In this document: positions 18,899 through 26,293 of the stretch, piece by piece
How the letters are laid out: every line of letters begins with the position of its first letter
Numbering within the stretch: the stretch's first letter is position 1
Assembly: GCA_017462455.1 (NCBI GenBank)
Contig: JAFTRC010000058.1
Span: forward strand, 123-64,122
Length of the DNA stretch: 64,000 nucleotides
From: Bacilli bacterium
GTDB taxonomy: Bacteria; Bacillota_I; Bacilli_A; RF39; UBA660
Direction of reading: 5' to 3'
Notes under the pieces: model-generated
Database searches by the model: none
What the model was told of the DNA's origin: nothing
Seen by the model: the letters and a program-made list of their open reading frames with translations, nothing else
Made by a program: the position numbers and the translations under genes

Positions 18899-20878
18899 TT
18901 ATTTGTTCAAAGTATTTATATAGTTAAGTATCACTTTTACAGTTTCTTCTGTACCAATGGAAGAATCTATACATAAATCATAGTTTTCAGCTTTGCCCCA
19001 TTCTTTACCAGAAATAGCTTTATAATAACTAGATCTATTTTTATCAGATTTCTTAATATTTTTTATAGCATCAGACTTTTTATCTTTATACATATCCATT
19101 ACATTTTTAATTCTTGTTTCTTCATCAGCAGTAATAAATATTCTAATAACATTTTTTCTATCTCTTAATACATAATCAGCAGCTCTACCAACTATCACGC
19201 ATGAACCTTTATCAGCAATCATATTAATTGCTTTTTCTTGTGCTTCAATAGCATATTTAACTGGTTCTGTAGTTAAGTATAAATCTCTTAAAATGTTATT
19301 AGATGAATTTAACTTATCAATAAATTCTCTATCTAAACCTGCTTCTTGTGCAGCCAATGCAGTCATTTCTTTATAGTAATATGGAATATTTAATTGTTCA
19401 GAAATTAACTTCCCAATATATTTTCCTTGACTACCATGACTTCTTGAAATCGCAATAATAATTCCTTCTTTAGAATTAAGTAATTTTGCTTTTTCAACTT
19501 TAACTTTCTTAGTTGAACTAATTTTCTTAAAGAATACAACTACTAATATAGAAGATACTATTATACCTACAACATCTGCTACAGGGGAAGCATATAGTGC
19601 TCCTTTTACTCCAAAGAATTTAGGTAAAATAATTACCATAGGAACAAAACAAACAATATCTCTTAATAAAGATGTAATTGCAGCTTTAACCGGATCTCCA
19701 ACCGCTTGAAAGAATATTGAAGTCATTTTAATTGTGCAAGTAAATGTGATTAACATTAAGAATATTCTAAATGTTATGACTGCAAATTCCATATATAAAT
19801 CTGATTCAGTACCAAACATTTTAATAACAACTTCTGGACATAATTCAAATACTAATGTTGATAAAATACCAACTATAATAGTAGAAATTAAAACTATCTT
19901 ATAAGTTTGTTTAACTCTATCAATTTTTTTTGCACCAAAGTTATATCCTAAAATTGGTTGTGCTCCTAATATAATACCTACTACTATATTAATAACAATA
20001 GTAAATACTTTCATACAAATACCCATAGTTGCAATAGGAATATCTGCACCATATTTTGACATTGCACCATATTTAGCTAACATAATATTACATACCAATG
20101 AAATAATTACTATAGACATTTGTGTTATAAAAGTACTAACACCTAATTTAATAACATTGCTAAATATACCCATATCTACTTTAAAACTATCTTTTGAAAG
20201 TTTAAAAGTTTTTGTACATTTTACAAAATAAACTATAGAAATAATTAACGATAATACCTGCCCTATAATTGTAGCCCAAGCTGCTCCTTCAATTCCCATA
20301 TCAAATACAAAAATAAAGATTGGGTCTAATATAATATTTGTAATTGCTCCTACTAAAGTTGCAATCATTGAACCCATTGGTGAACCATCAGCTCTAATAA
20401 TTGGATTCATAACATTAGCCATCATATATACAGGAATAAATAATAATATTATTTTAAAATAATCCTTTGATAGTCCTATTGTAACATCTGATGCCCCAAA
20501 CATTCTTAATAGCGGTTCCATAAATATAAAACCTAGTATTACAAATATAATACTAATAATAAAGTTAATTAAGATACTATTTCCAATTCCTTTGTGAACA
20601 TCTTTTGTATCTTTTCTTCCTTGTGCTAATGACAGAAATGCAGCTGAACCATCACCAAAGCACCATGCAAACGCAACTGAAATAATTGTTATTGGAAATA
20701 CTACAGATGTAGCTGCATTTCCTAAATAACCTAATTCACTATGTCCAATGAATATTTGGTCCACTATGTTATATAAAGAACTAATTAATAGTGATAATAT
20801 ACATGGAATAGCAAACTTAAATAAAATTTTTGATATCTTTTCTTCTCCAAGGTATCTATTGTTTTCTTGATTTCCCAT
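18899..20878 (-). CDS. MATE-family efflux transporter fused to a C-terminal cytidylate-kinase-like (Cytidylate_kin2) domain
   Basis: The N-terminal ~450 aa form a 12-TM MATE-like region. The C-terminal ~200 aa begin IIIAISRSHGSQGKYIGKLISEQLNIPYY, typical of the cytidylate-kinase-like family. One uninterrupted ORF. Confidence 0.8.
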   Translation of the reverse strand: MGNQENNRYLGEEKISKILFKFAIPCILSLLISSLYNIVDQIFIGHSELGYLGNAATSVVFPITIISVAFAWCFGDGSAAFLSLAQGRKDTKDVHKGIGNSILINFIISIIFVILGFIFMEPLLRMFGASDVTIGLSKDYFKIILLFIPVYMMANVMNPIIRADGSPMGSMIATLVGAITNIILDPIFIFVFDMGIEGAAWATIIGQVLSLIISIVYFVKCTKTFKLSKDSFKVDMGIFSNVIKLGVSTFITQMSIVIISLVCNIMLAKYGAMSKYGADIPIATMGICMKVFTIVINIVVGIILGAQPILGYNFGAKKIDRVKQTYKIVLISTIIVGILSTLVFELCPEVVIKMFGTESDLYMEFAVITFRIFLMLITFTCTIKMTSIFFQAVGDPVKAAITSLLRDIVCFVPMVIILPKFFGVKGALYASPVADVVGIIVSSILVVVFFKKISSTKKVKVEKAKLLNSKEGIIIAISRSHGSQGKYIGKLISEQLNIPYYYKEMTALAAQEAGLDREFIDKLNSSNNILRDLYLTTEPVKYAIEAQEKAINMIADKGSCVIVGRAADYVLRDRKNVIRIFITADEETRIKNVMDMYKDKKSDAIKNIKKSDKNRSSYYKAISGKEWGKAENYDLCIDSSIGTEETVKVILNYINTLNK

Positions 20879-20924
20879 TTTCTCCTCCTTATTTTACAAT
20901 CAACCCACTAGCTTTATTTAGGGC

Positions 20925-20963
20925 AAAAAAATAATGCGAAAAAGATGTCTCTTTTTACGCATT
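20925..20963 (-). terminator. promoter-proximal intrinsic terminator in the leader of the MATE-fusion gene
   Basis: On the minus strand: aatgcg-t-aaaaaga gaca tcttttt-cgcatt (13 bp), followed by ATTTTTTT. It lies about 45 nt upstream of the start codon. Confidence 0.6.
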
Positions 20964-20985
20964 AAGCTGGGTCTGACAAGATAAA

Positions 20986-20994
20986 ATTATATCA
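20986..20994 (-). promoter_or_regulatory. extended -10 promoter element TGATATAAT (leader of MATE-fusion gene)
   Basis: The minus strand reads aaaatgTGaTATAATttt. A second TGATATAAT lies at 21087..21095. Confidence 0.45.
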
Positions 20995-21162
20995 CATTTT
21001 CTTATTTTTGTGGACACTTTTTTTATAAAATCCTATAAAAAAGATCATTTCCAATAAACATAAACTACTATTTATCTATCAGTTGTATTATATCATGGAT
21101 TTTCAGAAAATTAGAGTACTAGAATGACTAGCTTCTAGGTTTTGTAAGGATTTGCACAATAT

Positions 21163-21425
21163 TGTGTAGCCTACCTGTAGCCATATGTAACCTACGACTA
21201 CAAAATCGTGTAATTTATCTATTTTAGACAAGCTAAAAAGCCCGTAAATAGGGCTTTTGAAACATTGAAATAAGTAATTCTTAACGTTTTGTAAATTAGC
21301 ATTCCTTTATTTATGCGGATTTATGAGGACTTTGTAGCCTACTTGTACTCTACCTAAACTGACTACAACTAACTCTTAGATACCTTAATAATTTACTTAA
21401 ATTTTAGAATTTTACTTCTTACAAA
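21163..21425. repeat. composite att-like repeat unit A (iterons, terminator, pseudo rpsI 3' end, iterons)
   Basis: Aligns by eye over about 240 bp with unit B and over about 150 bp with unit C. Terminator hairpin at 21235..21258, pseudo rpsI end at 21281..21298, and iterons at 21166, 21177, 21187, 21334 and 21345. Confidence 0.8.
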
Positions 21426-21449
21426 AAAATTAATTATTTTTATTTATAA

Positions 21450-22124
21450 TTAAACTTTTTTTCTTAGTGTTAAGACGTGCCAATTTTTTTGTTCCTTACC
21501 ACCTTCATTGTGATATTCTTCTATTTCAAACAAATCTTTTCTTAAATATTCAATATCTTCCTTGCTAAAATAAGCATAGAATCTTTTTTCTTTTGTCGGT
21601 TTATCTTCTAAAACTTTATACTCACATTTCGTTCCATTTGGCAATACACTTGCATTAGGATGAACATCAGCATTCTGAAAATTAATTATTAATAATCCGT
21701 CATCTGTTAATGCGTTATAGGCAACGTCAAATAATTTTTTCATATCATCCATATCTAAATGTGGGTTCCTCCATGATACTATAAGGTCTGCTTTAAAATC
21801 AAAAACATCATTATAGTTATCTAATAAAAAATTATATTTTTTTACTTTATTAATTCCAATTCTATTTTGCTCATTTAGAAAATCATCAACAGTATCAGTT
21901 GCTATAACGTTATATCCTGCAGATTGAAGCATAAAAGCAAGTTGTCCGCATCCACTTCCAAATTCTATAATTTTTTTATTCTTATCCTTACATAAATTAT
22001 TTTCAACATAATCAAATAATTTATCCCACTTTTCTGTTTCTGGATCAATTTCATTACGTTGTATATATTCAAGCGCACCGCCAGAATTATACATATTTAT
22101 AGTTTTTATATTGTGTTCACTCAT
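21450..22124 (-). CDS. class I SAM-dependent methyltransferase
   Basis: Motif I IIEFGSGCGQLAFMLQSAG followed by VIATD. GGAGG lies upstream. Confidence 0.7.
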   Translation of the reverse strand: MSEHNIKTINMYNSGGALEYIQRNEIDPETEKWDKLFDYVENNLCKDKNKKIIEFGSGCGQLAFMLQSAGYNVIATDTVDDFLNEQNRIGINKVKKYNFLLDNYNDVFDFKADLIVSWRNPHLDMDDMKKLFDVAYNALTDDGLLIINFQNADVHPNASVLPNGTKCEYKVLEDKPTKEKRFYAYFSKEDIEYLRKDLFEIEEYHNEGGKEQKNWHVLTLRKKV

Positions 22125-22202
22125 GATTTACCTCCATTAAATATTATATCACATTTTATTGTTTTATCCTATATAAACACACTAACTATCTAAATCCGAT
22201 TT

Positions 22203-22440
22203 TTTGTAATCTACCTGTATACTTCTTGTATGATACGAGCTAAAAAATTGTTTTCTATCAAGCAAAAAAGCCCATATAATCGGGCTTTTGAAATAAACTG
22301 TAAATTAACGTTTACTAAATTAGCTTCCCTTTGTTTATGCGGGTTTACAGCGTTTTTGTATGATACTCGTATGATACCTGCAGTGTCTTCAACTGACTCT
22401 AAGATATCTTAGTAATTTTTTACTTATTTGACTTCTAACT
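22203..22440. repeat. composite att-like repeat unit B
   Basis: Iterons at 22206, 22217 and 22228, terminator hairpin at 22264..22289, pseudo rpsI end at 22305..22322, iterons at 22358 and 22369, and a palindrome at 22399..22412. Confidence 0.8.
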
Positions 22441-22454
22441 AATAAATTGTAATT

Positions 22455-23417
22455 TTATTTTATTGTTAATGTTTTATTTTCATTGTCATTATCAGTTGCT
22501 TTTGATACTGTTAGATAAAATGTTCTAGTATCTTCTTCACCAACATAGAAAACACCATTAGCGACACCTTCTTTTACAGAACTAAATATATATTCTGAAT
22601 CTAAACTTTCAACTTCTACAACATCAATGCCTGCCATTTCATATCCACTTAATTCTTTACCTTTAATTGTTATAACATCACCAACTGAAAGTTCAATGTG
22701 ATAATCTGCACTTTCAGGAGTAATGCTTTCGTCCATATTTTCTTTTGCTAATTCTAAAGAGTATCCTTTAAGCTCACTGAAATTACCTTCTTTATTTACA
22801 GTTAATTTTGATGTCATAGTGCAACTATCTTTTTCACATTCTGCTGATAAATTGTATGAAAATGTATTATTATCTTCATCTTTAAAGCTAGTATCATTTT
22901 TATAGCTACTTTCAACAAATTCTACAACTTTATCTCCAAAGTCTTTAGTTAAAATTACAGTTCCTTCTCCTTCGTAATCTTCTGCGTTATCAACTACAAT
23001 ATAAGTTTCAGCATCTTCTGATATTGAACTAAACATTCCATCTAAATATAAGTTATCAAAATACACACTTGAATCTTCAAAATCTACCCCATAGGTATTA
23101 GCAAGTGCTATATATCCTACCTTTGGTAATGTAAACCCATCTGTTTTTGAAATATATTCTTCGTAATCTATTCCTTTTTTTACTTCTACTTCATAAATGA
23201 ATGTTGGATTATCACTTAAATCATACATAATAGTATAATTTTGTTCATTATGTTTAACTGTCATTGTATTATTTTCTACTTTTACTTCATAACCATATTC
23301 ATTTACTTCTGAATTAGTATACTCATTCAATGCATTTTTAAATTCCTTATTTACTTCTCCACATCCTGTTAATACCAAACCTGATATTAAACCTAATAAT
23401 AATATTTTCTTTTTCAT
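22455..23417 (-). CDS. hypothetical lipoprotein
   Basis: Signal peptide with lipobox (LISGLVLTGC). Acidic extracytoplasmic body. No family recognised. Confidence 0.6.
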   Translation of the reverse strand: MKKKILLLGLISGLVLTGCGEVNKEFKNALNEYTNSEVNEYGYEVKVENNTMTVKHNEQNYTIMYDLSDNPTFIYEVEVKKGIDYEEYISKTDGFTLPKVGYIALANTYGVDFEDSSVYFDNLYLDGMFSSISEDAETYIVVDNAEDYEGEGTVILTKDFGDKVVEFVESSYKNDTSFKDEDNNTFSYNLSAECEKDSCTMTSKLTVNKEGNFSELKGYSLELAKENMDESITPESADYHIELSVGDVITIKGKELSGYEMAGIDVVEVESLDSEYIFSSVKEGVANGVFYVGEEDTRTFYLTVSKATDNDNENKTLTIK

Positions 23418-23438
23418 TTAATTTCCTCCTAATTTATT

Positions 23439-23942
23439 TTATGCTTTTGTACATTCGTATTTTAATTTAATTTTATCACCGTCTGTCATTGTGAAATCAT
23501 CCATAACTGTAGAACAAGTATAATTTTCTGGAATATTTTCAAATGTTATTGTATATTCTCCTGCTTTTACACCTAATTCAGTTATATTTGTTCCTGATGT
23601 TTCATCAAAATCTATTGTAAATAAGTGGTCGTTACTTTCAACTCTTAAACTTAAGCCATTTATTACTTCTCCGTTTTGATCAGATACAATAAAGGTTACT
23701 GAGTTTTTTGGTGCAAACATTATGCCTATATTTTTAAATACTGCTAAAACAACACAAATTAAAACAACAATTACAAGAATAATACCTAATACTTTTTGCC
23801 ATAAAGGTTGTTTAGGAATTCCTTTTCCATTTTCTTTCTTTTTATCATATTCTTTTTTTGATTCTTCATAACCTTTTTTCATTAATTCTTTTAAGTTTTT
23901 AAAGTCTTCAGCATTAAAATTTGATTTATTGTTTTCTGACAT
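23439..23942 (-). CDS. hypothetical type-II membrane-anchored protein with small beta-rich ectodomain
   Basis: Charged N-terminus, one TM segment (VLGIILVIVVLICVVLAVF), then about 95 aa. GGAGGG lies upstream. Confidence 0.55.
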   Translation of the reverse strand: MSENNKSNFNAEDFKNLKELMKKGYEESKKEYDKKKENGKGIPKQPLWQKVLGIILVIVVLICVVLAVFKNIGIMFAPKNSVTFIVSDQNGEVINGLSLRVESNDHLFTIDFDETSGTNITELGVKAGEYTITFENIPENYTCSTVMDDFTMTDGDKIKLKYECTKA

Positions 23943-24132
23943 TTATTTCCCTCCATCCTTAATTCAAAATAATACATTAAAAATAAATTCATCTCAGCAT
24001 ATTATTTGATATTATTAATATTATACCACAAATTCGCCAAAAATCAGAATTACAAAAACCTCCAAAATAACGGCTTTATTTTTATGTATTTTGGCGTATG
24101 AAGACACGCTAATTTTCTAAAGCGCTCCCAAC

Positions 24133-24283
24133 TTTTTGTATGATACTCGTATGATACGTGTATGATACGAGTTAAAAATTCATTTTCAAACAAGCAAAAA
24201 AGCCCGTAAATACGAGCTTTTCGAAACATTGAAATACGTAATTTTGTACCAATATTGGTAATTTTTTAACGTTTTGAGAATTG
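24133..24283. repeat. composite att-like repeat unit C (abuts and includes the live rpsI 3' end)
   Basis: Three perfect GTATGATAC iterons at 24138, 24149 and 24160, a terminator at 24196..24221, a 14-bp palindrome at 24247..24260, and the rpsI stop at 24266. Confidence 0.8.
24196..24221 (-). terminator. intrinsic terminator of rplM-rpsI
   Basis: On the minus strand: aaaagctcg tatttac gggctttttt. Homologous hairpins occur in units A and B. Confidence 0.7.
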
Positions 24284-24685
24284 AGGTGCACGACGTGCTG
24301 CTTTTAATCCTGGTTTCTTTCTTTCTTTAGCTCTTGAATCACGAGTAACGAATCCAACTTTCTTTAAGATTTTTCTATAGCTATCTTCGTTTCCTTCATT
24401 AGCTTCATCATATTGTAATAAAGCTCTTGTAATTCCTAAACGGATTGCTCCAGTTTGTCCAGAAGCTCCTCCACCAGAAACTTTAACTTCGATATCGAAA
24501 GTGTTTTCGTTATTTGTAGCTACTAAAGGTTGTTTTAAATCCATTACATAAGTTGCATATGGCATAAATTCATTAACATCTACACCATTAACAGTTATTT
24601 TTCCTTCACCAGCTTTGCACATAGTCATTTTAACTTGAGCTACTGAAGATTTTCTTCTACCTGTTCCTATAAATACTTTTGCCAT
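24266..24685 (-). CDS. rpsI: 30S ribosomal protein S9
   Basis: Contains [10 protein letters not shown] ... RAPQFSKR. Follows rplM. Confidence 0.95.
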
Positions 24686-24697
24686 TTAAAACCCTCC

Positions 24698-25132
24698 TTA
24701 TTTAACTTTCATTTCTACTGGCTTTTGTGCCATATGTGGGTGTTCTGCACCTTCATAAACGAATAATTTTTTAGCTACTTGACGTCCTAATCTAGTATGA
24801 GGAATCATACCTTTAACAGCTCTCTCAATCATCTCAACTGGATAATTTTCTCTCATTTCTTTTGCAGTTCTTTCTCTTAATCCTCCAGTATAACCTGAAT
24901 GGTTGTAATAAATTTTATCATTTAATTTATTTCCTGTTAGATTAACTTTTGAAGCATTAACAACTATTACGAAATCTCCACAATCAATATGTGGTGTATA
25001 AGTTGGTTTATGCTTACCACGTAAAACATCAGCTACTCTAGTTGCTAAACGACCTAAATTAACTCCTTCAGCATCTATAACGTACCAATTACGTTCTACT
25101 GTTTCTTTTTTTTGCATATATGTATTTTTCAT
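24698..25132 (-). CDS. rplM: 50S ribosomal protein L13
   Basis: Trimmed to the ATG at 25132 (GGAGAAAGG upstream). Contains [16 protein letters not shown]. Confidence 0.95.
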
Positions 25133-25205
25133 ATATCTTTTCCTTTCTCCTTTACAAATAGTAAGTCTTCCCAAAACTCACTAAATGTGGGATATAAAAT
25201 GTACC
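25133..25205 (-). promoter_or_regulatory. candidate L13-type ribosomal-protein leader
   Basis: About 70-nt 5' UTR containing the hairpin cccacatttagtgagttttggg just upstream of the SD. Assigned by position only. Confidence 0.3.
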
Positions 25206-25212
25206 AAATAAA

Positions 25213-25262
25213 ATAATACTAAAAAAAGTAAAAAAAGTCAATAAAAATATATTAATTTGACT
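25213..25262 (-). promoter_or_regulatory. trpS terminator overlapping the rplM promoter (TTGACT-17-TATTAT)
   Basis: Stem agtcaa/ttgact at 25236..25262 with a T-run on the minus strand. The descending arm supplies the -35 TTGACT, and the -10 TATTAT lies at 25213..25218. Confidence 0.5.
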
Positions 25263-25273
25263 CTTTTTTATTA

Positions 25274-26293
25274 CTATTTTTCATTATTTTCTTCAAAATA
25301 ATCTAATTTCATATTTTTACGTACTCTTCTCATTACTTCTTCAGCTTTTCTCTTAGTTGCTTCAGTACCTTCTTTCAAGATTCTTTCTACCTCTTCCGGT
25401 CTTTCTTCGTAATATTTTCTTCTTTCTTGCATTGGTTTCAAGAATTCATTAATTTGTCTAGCAAGTTCTTTTTTACAGAATACGCATCCTCTTTCTCCAT
25501 TTTTACATTCACTACAAACAGCCGCTATATTAGGATTTTTGATAAGTTTGTGATAGTAATAAACCATACATACTTCTGGATCTGCAGGATCATCTTTTCT
25601 AAGTTTATTTGGATCAGTAACTGCACTCATTACTTTCTTAGTAATTGTTTCTTCATCATCAGATAAATATATACAGTTATTAAGTGATTTACTCATCTTC
25701 TCATTACCATCTAATCCTTTTATTCTAGGAGTTGAACTTAATACTGGTTCAGGTACGTTAAATGTCTCTCCATATATATTATTAAATTTTCTAACTATTT
25801 CTCTTGTTTGTTCAATATGAGGTAATTGATCTTCTCCAACAGGAACTAAGTTCCCATTAACACATGCTATATCTGCAGCCTGACTTACTGGATAACCTAA
25901 AAATCCATAAGTAATGCCTTCTCCATTATTTCCAAATAATTCTTGTTTTTGTAATACTTCATGTTTAGTAGTTGGATTTCTATAAAGTCTAGGTACTGAT
26001 ACTAAATTAGAAAAATATACTGTTAGTTCAGCTACTTCAGGTATTAAAGACTGTATATAAATGTGACATTGTTTAGGATCAATTCCTGCAGCTAGGTAAT
26101 CTAAAGCTAGTTCATGTACATTTTCTCTAACTTTTTCTGGATTATTAAAATTATCAGTTAAAGCTTGAACATCTGCAATAAGTATATAAGTGTTATAATC
26201 ATATTGCATCTTTACTCTATTTTCTAGTGAACCAAAATAATGTCCTAGGTGTAACTTACCTGTTGGTCTATCTCCTGTTAATATTGTTTTCAT
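25274..26293 (-). CDS. trpS: tryptophan--tRNA ligase (with C-terminal Cys cluster)
   Basis: HIGH-type motif (GKLHLGH) and KMSKS present. Trimmed to the ATG at 26293 (GGAGG upstream). Confidence 0.9.
   Translation of the reverse strand: MKTILTGDRPTGKLHLGHYFGSLENRVKMQYDYNTYILIADVQALTDNFNNPEKVRENVHELALDYLAAGIDPKQCHIYIQSLIPEVAELTVYFSNLVSVPRLYRNPTTKHEVLQKQELFGNNGEGITYGFLGYPVSQAADIACVNGNLVPVGEDQLPHIEQTREIVRKFNNIYGETFNVPEPVLSSTPRIKGLDGNEKMSKSLNNCIYLSDDEETITKKVMSAVTDPNKLRKDDPADPEVCMVYYYHKLIKNPNIAAVCSECKNGERGCVFCKKELARQINEFLKPMQERRKYYEERPEEVERILKEGTEATKRKAEEVMRRVRKNMKLDYFEENNEK

What the first reader, a model, noticed from the sequence alone, without database searches (positions are those of the whole stretch)
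22305..22322. Units A and B carry displaced pseudo-3' ends of rpsI that still encode F-S/T-K-R-stop
Seen directly, reading the minus strand:
- Live rpsI ends cct caa ttc tca aaa cgt taa (P Q F S K R stop, at 24266).
- Unit B (22305..22322) reads taa ttt agt aaa cgt taa (stop F S K R stop).
- Unit A (21281..21298) reads taa ttt aca aaa cgt taa (stop F T K R stop).

The Ser codon differs at all three positions between the live gene (tca) and unit B (agt), yet it still encodes Ser.

In all three copies this segment has the same orientation relative to the homologous terminator hairpin. The spacing matches in A and B; C carries a 22-nt insertion there.

Inference: A and B were at some time functional ends of rpsI, or they are element-borne mimics that rebuild the S9 C-terminus on integration. 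Elements that target the 3' end of an essential gene do exactly this. Only 4 codons are involved, so the argument is suggestive and not conclusive.
Basis: inference. Interest (0 to 1): 0.7.

Follow-up and report, generated by a model that had tools for sequence, protein, structure and literature searches.

The report
Integration-site scars behind ribosomal gene rpsI
The two "pseudo-ends" of the ribosomal protein S9 gene are attachment sites left by small mobile elements that inserted one after another at the end of that gene using a phage-type integrase, a known kind of event seen here in an uncultured gut bacterium.

Summary
The strings and coordinates are correct, but the 4-codon mimic is only the core of a much larger repeat of about 250 nt.

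- **Unit layout.** Units A and B each hold two 9-mers (GTAnnnTAC) starting 72 and 61 nt upstream of the end of the pseudo-stop. Then come a 38-nt spacer, the pseudo rpsI end, a terminator hairpin, and three more 9-mers at 11-nt phasing.
- **Match to phage sites.** Temperate-phage attP sites in IMG/VR contigs have the same layout, with nucleotide-identical P-arm spacing. They sit between a lysin gene and a 347-aa tyrosine integrase and carry pseudo rpsI ends such as caatttacaaaacgatag.
- **What A, B and C are.** They are attR, a hybrid attR/attL junction, and attL of a tandem array at the rpsI 3' end. They bound two integrase-less cassettes: one with 167-aa and 320-aa ORFs, one with a SAM methyltransferase.
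- **Strand exchange.** An attL/attP/attR triple in a relative bounds exchange to the K-R codons plus the first two stop bases. The F-S/T codons therefore come from element arms and were probably never translated. Terminators B and A probably did once serve rpsI.
- **Verdict.** The Ser-to-Ser "preservation" is incidental: element-borne copies mostly read Thr, once Cys. This is a new member of a known kind, of moderate-to-low interest.

The parts
24266..24685 (-). Live rpsI (ribosomal protein S9, 139 aa). Its last 9 nt AAACGTTAA (24266-24274) are the identity block shared with units A and B, and the inferred strand-exchange region.
   Evidence: ORF list. PF00380 on the identical gene in L001. 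Core comparison.
24138..24265 (-). Unit C, the P' side of attL. It holds a 44-nt spacer with an internal 22-nt insertion and the palindrome TACCAATATTGGTA, a terminator hairpin at 24197-24222, and three perfect arm sites GTATCATAC (24160-24168, 24149-24157, 24138-24146).
   Evidence: About 93% identical to the 3' flank of rpsI in the distant genome L043, against 73-75% in the coding sequence.
22443..24034 (-). Cassette 1 cargo module. It has its own extended -10 promoter (tgtggtataat), ORF 167 aa (23439-23942, one TM segment) and ORF 320 aa (22455-23417, lipoprotein-like signal peptide). There is no Pfam or PHROG hit and no integrase.
   Evidence: The module is 97.4% identical over exactly 24034-22443 to contig L251, where it is not flanked by att units. 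Homologous pair (53-56% aa identity to the 320-aa ORF) sits in another rpsI array, L249.
22323..22418 (-). Unit B P arm (right end of cassette 1). It holds a TAAGATATC box, two perfect arm sites GTATCATAC (22369-22377, 22358-22366) and a 38-nt spacer ...CCGCATAAACAAAGGGAAGC.
   Evidence: Arm starts at -72/-61 from the end of the pseudo-stop, identical to four phage attP sites. Ungapped alignment with phage P arms.
22305..22322 (-). Unit B pseudo rpsI end, taatttagtaaacgttaa. It consists of a core-type site (AATTTAGT, element-derived) plus the exchange region (AAACGTTAA).
22206..22304 (-). Unit B P' side (left end of cassette 2). It holds a 15-nt spacer, a terminator hairpin at 22266-22289, and three arm sites, partly degenerate: GTATCATAC 22228-22236, GAAGTATAC 22217-22225, GTAGATTAC 22206-22214.
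   Evidence: This stretch and the promoter that follows it are 87% identical to the first unit of relative L006, which carries a different cargo gene.
21450..22165 (-). Cassette 2, with promoter aaaatgtgatataat (about 22140-22165) and a 224-aa SAM-dependent methyltransferase (21450-22124).
   Evidence: (D5/D6). A 78% identical homologue lies downstream of rpsI in L028 without arm sites.
21299..21394 (-). Unit A P arm (right end of cassette 2). It holds a TAAGGTATC box, arm sites GTAGAGTAC (21345-21353) and GTAGGCTAC (21334-21342), and a 38-nt spacer ...CCGCATAAATAAAGGAATGC.
21281..21298 (-). Unit A pseudo rpsI end, taatttacaaaacgttaa.
21166..21280 (-). Unit A distal side. It holds a 22-nt spacer, a terminator hairpin at 21236-21258, and degenerate arm sites (GTAGGTTAC 21187-21195, ...GGCTAC, GTAGGCTAC 21166-21174). 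The same spacer, terminator and degenerate arms follow live rpsI directly in L005 and L249.
21050..21165 (-). Cargo-less remnant of a third cassette left end. It holds the conserved block ...ATATTGTGCAAATCCTTACAAAACCTAGAAGCTAGTC..., a -10 box gatataat and the leader CTGATAGATAAATAGTAGTTT, with no ORF behind it.
   Evidence: Homologous blocks precede real genes in L005, L006 and L249.

Best explanation
**What the units are.** Units C, B and A are the attachment sites of a tandem array made by successive site-specific integrations at the 3' end of rpsI.
- C is attL.
- B is a hybrid junction: the P arm of cassette 1, the core, then the P' arm of cassette 2.
- A is attR of cassette 2, joined to an older element remnant.

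**The recombinase.** It is a heterobivalent, lambda-Int-like phage tyrosine integrase.
- Its N-terminal domain is inferred to bind the 9-mers GTAnnnnAC, phased at 11 bp, two on the P arm and three on the P' arm.
- Its catalytic part exchanges strands within the last 8-9 nt of rpsI (AAACGTTA, the K-R codons plus the start of the stop).

**Consequences of integration.**
- Each incoming circle (P-core-terminator-P') gives rpsI a new final stop base, 3' spacer and Rho-independent terminator.
- It pushes the previous terminator, now prefixed by the newcomer's P arm, downstream. That P arm ends in an rpsI-like core-type site AATTT-ACA/AGT.
- The 'F-S/T-K-R-stop' reading is therefore a by-product of the element's core site resembling the target, not a displaced coding end.

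**The cassettes.** The two cassettes in the window (1.7 and 0.8 kb, each with its own promoter) encode no integrase. They are CIME-like elements that could move only with an integrase supplied in trans. The freshest one, with five perfect arm sites, lies next to rpsI and the most decayed lies farthest away.

**Shown versus inferred.**
- Shown: the architecture, the homology to phage attP, the adjacency of the integrase to attP in phages, the absence of an integrase here, and the crossover bounds in a relative.
- Inferred: arm-site binding, the order of insertions, and trans-mobilisation.
For: 1. **Geometry.** The P-arm 9-mers start at -72 and -61 from the end of the (pseudo)stop in window units A and B and in four independent phage attP sites (L230, L215, L216, L232). 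The P' sites lie at +91/+102/+113 in phages and at +69 to +120 in the window. The 125-nt P-arm alignment is essentially ungapped across 10 units.
2. **Phage contigs.** They show lysin, then two arm sites, 38 nt, a pseudo rpsI end, a terminator, three arm sites, then integrase on the reverse strand and a cI-like repressor. The integrase hits PF00589 at 2.8e-26 and phrog_1 'integrase' at 2.1e-50.
3. **Arm signature.** The triple-arm pattern found 71 IMG/VR loci. At least 45 of them have a homologue of this integrase (33-100% identity) beside the arms. Targets include rpsI and tRNA 3' ends.
4. **Integrated prophages.** L180, L203 and L212 show live rpsI, then terminator, arms and integrase, i.e. 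attL.
5. **Crossover.** L033 attL is ...tttagtaagagatag|gaaacat. L232 attP is ...tttacaaagagatag|gaaacat. L033 attR is ...tttacaaagagataa|aatgc. Exchange therefore lies within AAGAGATA.
6. **Site states in relatives.** L003 and L007 are virgin sites without arms. L005 and L249 have the A-type terminator directly after rpsI. Arrays with other cargo occur in L002, L006, L020, L023, L033 and L249.
7. **No integrase nearby.** None was found in the window or in any of the rpsI loci L001-L161. Pfam scans of selected window ORFs, including all larger ORFs between 5652 and 26338, show none.
8. **Horizontal spread.** The unit C flank is about 93% identical in L043, against 73-75% for the adjacent coding sequence.
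9. **Literature.** The rpsI 3' end is a documented hotspot for tyrosine-integrase ICEs, IMEs and prophages. Integrase-less CIMEs accrete in tandem at such sites (PMC7487436, PMC5704250).
Against: - No cognate integrase or phage with GTATCATAC or GTAGGCTAC arms at an rpsI-type attP was found.
- At nucleotide level the window units are too diverged from the phage attP sites for blastn. Homology rests on motif, order and spacing.
- Arm-site variants match better within a junction unit (A: P and P' both GTAGGCTAC-like) than across cassette 2 (left GTATCATAC/GTAGATTAC, right GTAGAGTAC/GTAGGCTAC). The simple model does not predict this, so it needs later conversion or recombination between units.
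- The crossover position was determined in a relative (L033/L232), not in this genome.
- All 8 contigs that carry these cassette proteins show the same array, so there is no sign of ongoing mobility.
- Integrase binding to the 9-mers is inferred, not tested.
Confidence: 0.85

Rival explanations
1. The cassettes are not fossils. They form an active, integron-like cassette system: promoter-bearing 1-2 kb modules with complete attP-like sites that are excised and re-inserted at rpsI by a phage or ICE integrase supplied in trans. The rpsI 3' end would then act as a cassette platform in this clade of uncultured Bacilli.
For: - Cassette 1 has five perfect arm sites and an intact core.
- Integrase-less arrays with different cargo occur in at least seven species-level genomes: the window, L002, L006, L020, L023, L033 and L249.
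- Cassette left ends share a conserved promoter and leader across species although the cargo differs.
- No phage gene remnants lie inside the cassettes.
- The L033 cassette has att sites nearly identical to those of an extant phage, L232.
Against: - No excision product, empty-site polymorphism or cognate integrase was observed.
- The array is identical in all 8 contigs of this species.
- The arms of cassette 2 and of the third remnant are decayed.
- MAG contigs often break at prophages, so the absence of an integrase is weak evidence.
- The cargo module of cassette 1 also occurs without att flanks at 97% identity (L251). Cargo may therefore enter by other routes.
Confidence: 0.2
2. A and B are true former 3' ends of rpsI, coding sequence included. 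They would have been displaced by duplication of the gene end or by insertions inside the gene, and they still encode F-S/T-K-R because of past or residual selection.
For: - The in-frame reading FSKR*/FTKR* is present.
- The B-type 15-mer is used as a live end in 6 relatives.
- FTKR is a legitimate S9 C-terminus in distant taxa.
Against: - Similarity to rpsI ends at AATT. A stop codon, TAA, replaces the Gln codon, and upstream sequence matches phage P arms, not rpsI.
- Free phage genomes carry the same pseudo-ends.
- The crossover is bounded 3' of the S/T codon.
- Element-borne copies read T in 7 cases, C in 1 and S in 1.
Confidence: 0.04
3. The repeats are a dispersed intergenic element, either a terminator-containing REP/MITE-like repeat or a regulatory RNA or protein-binding module. 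Their resemblance to the rpsI end would then be chance.
For: - Each unit contains a terminator and short phased repeats.
- The 17-mer with 2 mismatches is not above chance.
Against: - The units occur nowhere else in 64 kb.
- There is no Rfam match.
- The pseudo-end co-varies with the local rpsI end: CGTTAA here, AGATAG or AGATAA in L020, L023 and L033.
- The same module sits next to integrases in phages.
Confidence: 0.02

Closest known systems
Lambda-type (heterobivalent) tyrosine integrase attP sites with arm-type sites P1, P2 / P'1-P'3 (textbook knowledge)
   Same: - A core flanked by a P arm with two direct-repeat arm sites and a P' arm with three, all in the same orientation.
- The integrase gene lies next to P'.
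- Integration gives attL and attR that each duplicate the core.
   Different: - The arm sites are 9-mers, GTAnnnnAC, in strict 11-bp tandem.
- A Rho-independent terminator is built into attP between the core and P'.
- The target is the last codons of rpsI.
- The integrase N-terminal domain (MKLPNGYGS..KLSGKRRKPY) has no Pfam match, and its binding was not tested.
Streptococcal elements that integrate in the 3' end of rpsI: Tn5252-family ICEs, IMESag-rpsI, the GBSInt5 prophage and PICI-like elements (PMC7487436, PMC5704250, PMC4701971)
   Same: - Same target gene and same end of the gene.
- Tyrosine integrases.
- The site is a hotspot shared by phages, ICEs, IMEs and decayed elements, often in tandem.
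   Different: - A different host clade (uncultured gut Bacilli MAGs).
- No relationship between the integrases or att sequences was tested.
- The elements here are much smaller (0.8-1.7 kb) and carry no integrase, relaxase or replication genes.
CIMEs (cis-mobilizable elements) and tandem accretion, as in ICESt1/ICESt3 of Streptococcus thermophilus (reviewed in PMC5704250)
   Same: - Elements that keep attL and attR but lack integration and transfer genes.
- They accumulate in tandem at the 3' end of a housekeeping gene.
- Newer arrivals integrate into an att site of the resident element.
   Different: - Here the likely helpers are temperate phages rather than ICEs.
- No decayed mobility genes are visible inside the cassettes.
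- The cassettes have a conserved promoter and leader at their left end.
SCC / pseudo-SCC arrays at the 3' end of rlmH (orfX) in staphylococci (own knowledge)
   Same: - Tandem cassettes at the end of a housekeeping gene.
- Each is bounded by a direct repeat that reproduces the gene's last codons.
- Recombinase-less members depend on a recombinase encoded elsewhere.
   Different: - SCC uses large serine recombinases (CcrAB/CcrC) and short att repeats without arm sites.
- SCC elements are tens of kb long.
Integron gene cassettes (own knowledge)
   Same: Arrays of small, recombinase-less cassettes of one or two genes, inserted one after another at a fixed site by a tyrosine recombinase.
   Different: - There is no intI or attI platform.
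- The sites are double-stranded attP-like sites with arm repeats, not folded attC hairpins.
- The cassettes carry their own promoters and terminators.

Membership tests
att sites of a heterobivalent phage-type tyrosine integrase | A core that shares a short identity block with the target, here the rpsI 3' end | tested here: met
   AAACGTTAA is identical in C, B and A. The pseudo-end co-varies with the local rpsI end in relatives.
att sites of a heterobivalent phage-type tyrosine integrase | Arm-type direct repeats on both sides of the core at fixed distances, as in bona fide attP sites of the family | tested here: met
   P arm sites at -72/-61 in window A and B and in 4 phage attP sites. Three P' sites follow the terminator.
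att sites of a heterobivalent phage-type tyrosine integrase | A cognate integrase encoded next to the site | tested here: not met
   - There is no integrase homologue in the window or in rpsI loci L001-L161.
- Pfam scans of selected window ORFs found none.
- The feature is met only in viral contigs.
att sites of a heterobivalent phage-type tyrosine integrase | Recombination (integration or excision) demonstrated at the site | not testable with these tools
   The only support is comparative: an attL/attP/attR triple in L033/L232, and empty and occupied sites in relatives.
CIME (cis-mobilizable element) | Flanked by attL and attR but lacking integrase and transfer genes | tested here: met
   Cassettes 1 and 2 are bounded by units C/B and B/A. 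Their ORFs have no integrase, relaxase or phage hits.
CIME (cis-mobilizable element) | Derived by decay of an autonomous element and mobilisable after accretion with one | tested here: inconclusive
   - No remnants of phage genes were found.
- L023 shows attL and attR fused through shared arm sites, as expected after an internal deletion.
- No mobilisation data exist.
Integron cassette array | An intI gene with adjacent attI and Pc, attC recombination sites, and mostly promoterless cassettes | tested here: not met
   There is no integrase nearby. The sites are attP-like, with terminators and arm repeats. Each cassette has its own extended -10 promoter.
Displaced former coding 3' end of rpsI (gene-end duplication) | Homology to rpsI continuing upstream of the last codons | tested here: not met
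   Upstream of AATT, 6 of 19 positions match rpsI (by eye), and TAA replaces the CAA codon. The upstream sequence aligns with phage P arms instead.

The most novel reading that the evidence does not exclude
In a clade of uncultured gut Bacilli, the rpsI 3' end serves as an integron-like platform. Promoter-bearing cassettes of one or two genes carry a complete five-arm attP-like site but no recombinase. They are captured, stacked and exchanged by hijacking the integrases of temperate phages that target the same site. Cargo modules are swapped in and out of a conserved att 'shell'.
Probability: 0.2. Interest if true: 0.6.

Novelty: new member of a known kind. Interest (0 to 1): 0.35.

Why it matters
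- **Explanation of the oddity.** An apparent repeated 'ghost' gene end is explained by ordinary site-specific recombination.
- **Annotation.** The result marks about 3.1 kb downstream of rpsI (21166-24265), plus an adjacent 116-nt remnant (21050-21165), as horizontally acquired. It also shows that all three terminators there, including the one now serving the rplM-rpsI operon, are element-derived.
- **A reusable signature.** The pattern is gene 3' end, terminator, about 40 nt, then three copies of GTAGnnnAC at 11-bp phasing. In IMG/VR it finds attP/attL sites and the adjacent integrase of a widespread family of Firmicute prophage integrases. This could help delimit prophages and small integrase-less hitchhikers in MAGs.
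- **If trans-mobilisation is real.** If the small cassettes are mobilised in trans, this would be a phage-integrase-dependent analogue of cassette arrays.

Tried and rejected
- **Rfam.** A scan of 20500-25400 at E<=1 gave only a chance miRNA hit, so no known RNA family explains the units.
- **Integrase search.** Pfam scans of selected ORFs, covering 5652-26338 and several elsewhere, found only housekeeping genes.
- **Metagenome scan with S9.** The best match was 86% identical, so it gave no strain-level variants of this species. It added only a few more loci with arm repeats: L083, L091, L094 and L110.
- **Viral scan for the window's own arm variant, GTATCATACNNGTATCATAC.** It gave 15 loci, none with an rpsI-type core. 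A scan for GTAGnnTAC-type P arms returned only a tRNA-targeting attP (L228) and one other locus (L248), neither with an rpsI-type core.
- **tblastx and blastn of the cassettes against all fetched viral loci.** There were no phage gene remnants.
- **Exact-protein look-ups of S9, the methyltransferase and the 167-aa ORF.** All contigs show the same array.
- **Inverted core-type sites.** I tried by eye to define such sites around the overlap, but the spacing was inconsistent, so I make no claim.
- **Rejected idea.** I considered that L043's identical last 24 nt of rpsI shows the element importing the gene end. Its relatives differ there by only one base, so this is uninformative.

Full report
**1. 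The observation**

- On the minus strand, live rpsI (24266-24685) ends ...cct caa ttc tca aaa cgt taa.
- 22305-22322 reads taatttagtaaacgttaa (unit B). 21281-21298 reads taatttacaaaacgttaa (unit A), exactly as reported.
- The exact pattern shared by A and B occurs only there in 64 kb, with 0.00 expected. If two mismatches are allowed, so that the live end is included, the count is 3 against 2.26 expected. The four codons alone carry no statistical weight.
- Each copy is followed by a hairpin plus U-run, with minimum free energies of -17.6, -10.9 and -12.3 kcal/mol for the stretches tested.
- One detail is wrong. The distance from stop to hairpin is 22 nt in A, 15 nt in B and 44 nt in C. A and B therefore do not match, and the 22-nt insertion in C is relative to A.

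**2. The units are much larger than the finding**

- A and B share 114 nt at 75% identity, extending upstream of the pseudo-end. B and C share 94 nt at 77%, extending downstream of the terminator.
- Both flanks contain direct 9-mers GTAnnnTAC at 11-nt phasing.
  - Three lie after terminator C and two before pseudo-end B, all perfect GTATCATAC.
  - Related, partly degenerate copies lie after B and around A.
- The double 9-mer pattern has 4 matches against 0.00 expected, all in these units.
- Similarity to rpsI stops at AATT. Upstream of it, A and B carry TAA instead of the Gln codon and then sequence unrelated to rpsI.
- Cargo between the units:
  - Between C and B lie a 167-aa and a 320-aa ORF with no family hits.
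  - Between B and A lies a 224-aa SAM methyltransferase.
  - Each set has its own extended -10 promoter.
- Downstream of A come housekeeping-type genes: a MATE-cytidylate-kinase fusion, a CDF transporter, GDPD, gmk and others. None of the selected window ORFs scanned with Pfam is a recombinase.

**3. Relatives**

A scan of species-representative genomes with S9 returned 80 rpsI loci, mostly MAGs labelled uncultured Bacilli, Erysipelotrichaceae or Tenericutes.

- **Sites without arm repeats.** Many have a plain site of rpsI, its own terminator and then the next core gene. Examples are L003 and L007, where the cassette region is simply absent.
- **Sites with arm repeats.** Others have tandem 11-nt repeats of the same type starting 88-102 nt after the rpsI stop. 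The variants are GTAGGCAAC, GTAGCACAC, GTAGCCCAC, GTAGCATAC and GTAGGCTAC.
- **A-type terminator in live use.** L005 and L249 have live rpsI followed directly by the A-type spacer, terminator and degenerate repeats.
- **Other arrays.** L002, L006, L020, L023, L033 and L249 carry one to three small cassettes with other cargo. Each is closed by a second unit with two 9-mers, about 38 nt and a pseudo rpsI end.
- **Co-variation.** The K-R-stop part of the pseudo-end co-varies with the local gene...agataa or ...agatag where the live gene ends that way.
- **No integrase.** None of these loci contains an integrase homologue.

**4. The key result: phage attP**

- Scanning IMG/VR for three phased repeats (GTAGNNNAC NN, three times) gave 71 loci, many at contig ends.
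- At least 45 of them have, directly beside the repeats and convergent with them, a homologue of one 347-aa protein at 33-100% identity. That protein is a tyrosine recombinase: PF00589 at 2.8e-26 and phrog_1 'integrase' at 2.1e-50.
- Contigs L230/L178, L215, L216 and L232 show the order lysin, attP, integrase, cI-like repressor.
- Their attP consists of two arm sites, 38 nt, a pseudo rpsI end, a terminator hairpin, a TTAAGATAC box and three arm sites. The pseudo-ends are caatttacaaaacgatag, caatttactaagagatag, caattctgtaaacgatag and caatttacaaagagatag.
- L180, L203 and L212 are the integrated form: live rpsI (...PQFSKR*), terminator, arms, integrase.
- The P-arm sites start at -72 and -61 from the end of the (pseudo)stop in all four phage attP sites and in window units A and B. 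The 125-nt P arms of ten units align almost without gaps.
- The same architecture serves other targets (tRNA 3' ends; a gene ending ...KAGKF*), so it is a signature of the family.
- Within each phage all five arm sites share one variant, and phages with 80-91% identical integrases use different variants. This fits specific recognition by the conserved N-terminal domain. That recognition is inferred, not tested.

**5. Where strands are exchanged**

- L033 carries a 1.1-kb cassette flanked by sites nearly identical to those of phage L232:
  - attL: ...caatttagtaagagatag|gaaacatacc
  - attP: ...caatttacaaagagatag|gaaacatacc
  - attR...caatttacaaagagataa|aatgcttttt
- The host keeps its agt codon in attL, and the phage's aca ends up in attR. 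The phage's tag stop is now on the live gene, and the host's taa stop is in attR.
- Exchange therefore lies within AAGAGATA. L203 against L215 gives the same left bound.
- By homology, exchange in the window lies within AAACGTTA(A), the only block identical in C, B and A.

Consequences:
- (a) The F and S/T codons of A and B come from element P arms and were not part of a translated rpsI.
- (b) The element contributes the last stop base, the 3' spacer and the terminator.
- (c) Terminator B served rpsI before cassette 1 arrived. The A-type terminator served it before cassette 2, as it still does in L005 and L249.

**6. The 'synonymous Ser' argument**

- Among distinct element-borne pseudo-ends, the S position reads Thr in seven cases: window A, L020, L023, L033, L178/L230, L215 and L232. 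It reads Cys in L216 and Ser only in window B.
- Live genes of the close relatives all read FSKR. F/Y-TKR occurs only in distant taxa.
- Exactly the B-type 15-mer tttagtaaacgttaa is the live end in six loci: L017, L059 and L103-L106.
- The B core thus looks like a core site matched to a common rpsI allele, rather than a codon preserved by selection.

**7. Nature of the cassettes**

- They contain no integrase and no detectable phage gene remnants.
- Cassette 1 has five perfect arm sites, cassette 2 has decayed ones, and beyond A only a cargo-less left end remains at 21050-21165. This gradient is what repeated insertion at the live gene end predicts.
- The unit C flank is about 93% identical in L043, whose rpsI and rplM are only 73-75% identical. 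This indicates horizontal spread.
- The left end of cassette 2 (arms plus promoter) is 87% identical to that of an L006 cassette with different cargo.
- The cargo module of cassette 1 (24034-22443) recurs at 97.4% identity in contig L251 without att flanks. A diverged copy (53-56% aa identity to the 320-aa ORF) sits in another rpsI array, L249.
- L023 shows attL and attR fused through shared arm sites. That is the product expected if everything between the directly repeated P' and P arms is deleted.
- All 8 contigs of this species show the same array, so there is no evidence of current movement.
- I therefore treat the cassettes as CIME-like elements. Whether they are inert or trans-mobilisable stays open.

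**8. Comparison with what is known**

- The rpsI 3' end is a documented hotspot for tyrosine-integrase ICEs, IMEs, prophages and PICI-like elements in streptococci. CIMEs and tandem accretion at such sites are described (PMC7487436, PMC5704250).
- The two-plus-three arm-site layout is that of lambda-type attP (textbook knowledge).
- The nearest integrases in the phage-genome collection searched are only about 40% identical. The nearest from named, cultured phages are those of Butyrivibrio phages Idris and Arawn.
- The integron and gene-end-duplication readings fail their defining tests (see the membership table).

**9. Verdict**

The coding interpretation is not supported.
- This is a new member of a known kind.
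- The main residual interest is the recurring arrays of integrase-less micro-cassettes with complete attP-like sites in this uncultured clade.

Noticed in passing
IMG/VR loci L162-L232 (for example L222, L228, L166, L172, L214): The layout of gene 3' end, terminator, about 40 nt and three phased GTAGnnnAC repeats marks attP/attL of one widespread integrase family. Other targets include tRNA 3' ends and a gene ending ...KAGKF*. The five arm sites are homogenised within each phage and differ between close relatives.
   Followed up: partly
L023:4812-5060: Here attL and attR are fused. The same two GTAGGCTAC repeats serve as the P' arm of the live site (+89) and as the P arm (-74) of a pseudo-end taatttactacgagatag, with no cargo between them. 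This looks like the product of a deletion between the directly repeated arms.
   Followed up: partly
window 22443-24034 versus L251:679-2270: The cassette 1 cargo module (promoter, 167-aa ORF, 320-aa lipoprotein-like ORF) is 97.4% identical to a metagenome contig. There it lies between an unrelated gene and a response-regulator gene, with no att units. The cargo is therefore separable from the att 'shell'.
   Followed up: partly
window 20880-21020: The MATE-cytidylate-kinase-like fusion gene (18899-20878) has its own promoter (aaaatgtgatataat) and a leader with a terminator-like hairpin (gcgtaaaaagagacatctttttcgcattattttttt). This could be an attenuator or riboswitch, but there is no Rfam hit. 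The whole gene is absent in relative L007, where rpsI is followed directly by the CDF transporter gene.
   Followed up: partly
window 24223-24265: The spacer of unit C contains the perfect palindrome TACCAATATTGGTA inside a 22-nt insertion flanked by the duplicated AAAATTAC. L043 has the same palindrome without the duplication. Its function is unknown.
   Followed up: no
window 24610-24640 (rpsI codons about 20-28): S9 of this genome is 139 aa and reads ...[13 protein letters not shown]... where close relatives (136 aa) read ...VKMTAGKGKI.... This is a 3-residue insertion with substitutions in an otherwise highly conserved protein.
   Followed up: no
L008:1068-9065 and L033:7589-8311: In relatives, the cargo behind rpsI includes defence-like genes. 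L008 has a RelB/DinJ-like 95-aa ORF, a 777-aa protein with a primase/helicase-like N-terminus, and a 453-aa AAA ATPase-like protein. L033 has a DUF3800-like 240-aa ORF. These annotations are by eye only and were not run through PADLOC.
   Followed up: no
L203:2125-2565, L215, L232, L212, L181 (between the P' arms and the integrase gene): The rpsI-targeting phages carry a conserved 122-146-aa ORF with a Cys-rich C-terminus between attP and the integrase gene. It has a weak DUF7685 hit and a weak phrog 'transcriptional repressor' hit. It could be a moron, or a directionality or regulatory factor.
   Followed up: partly
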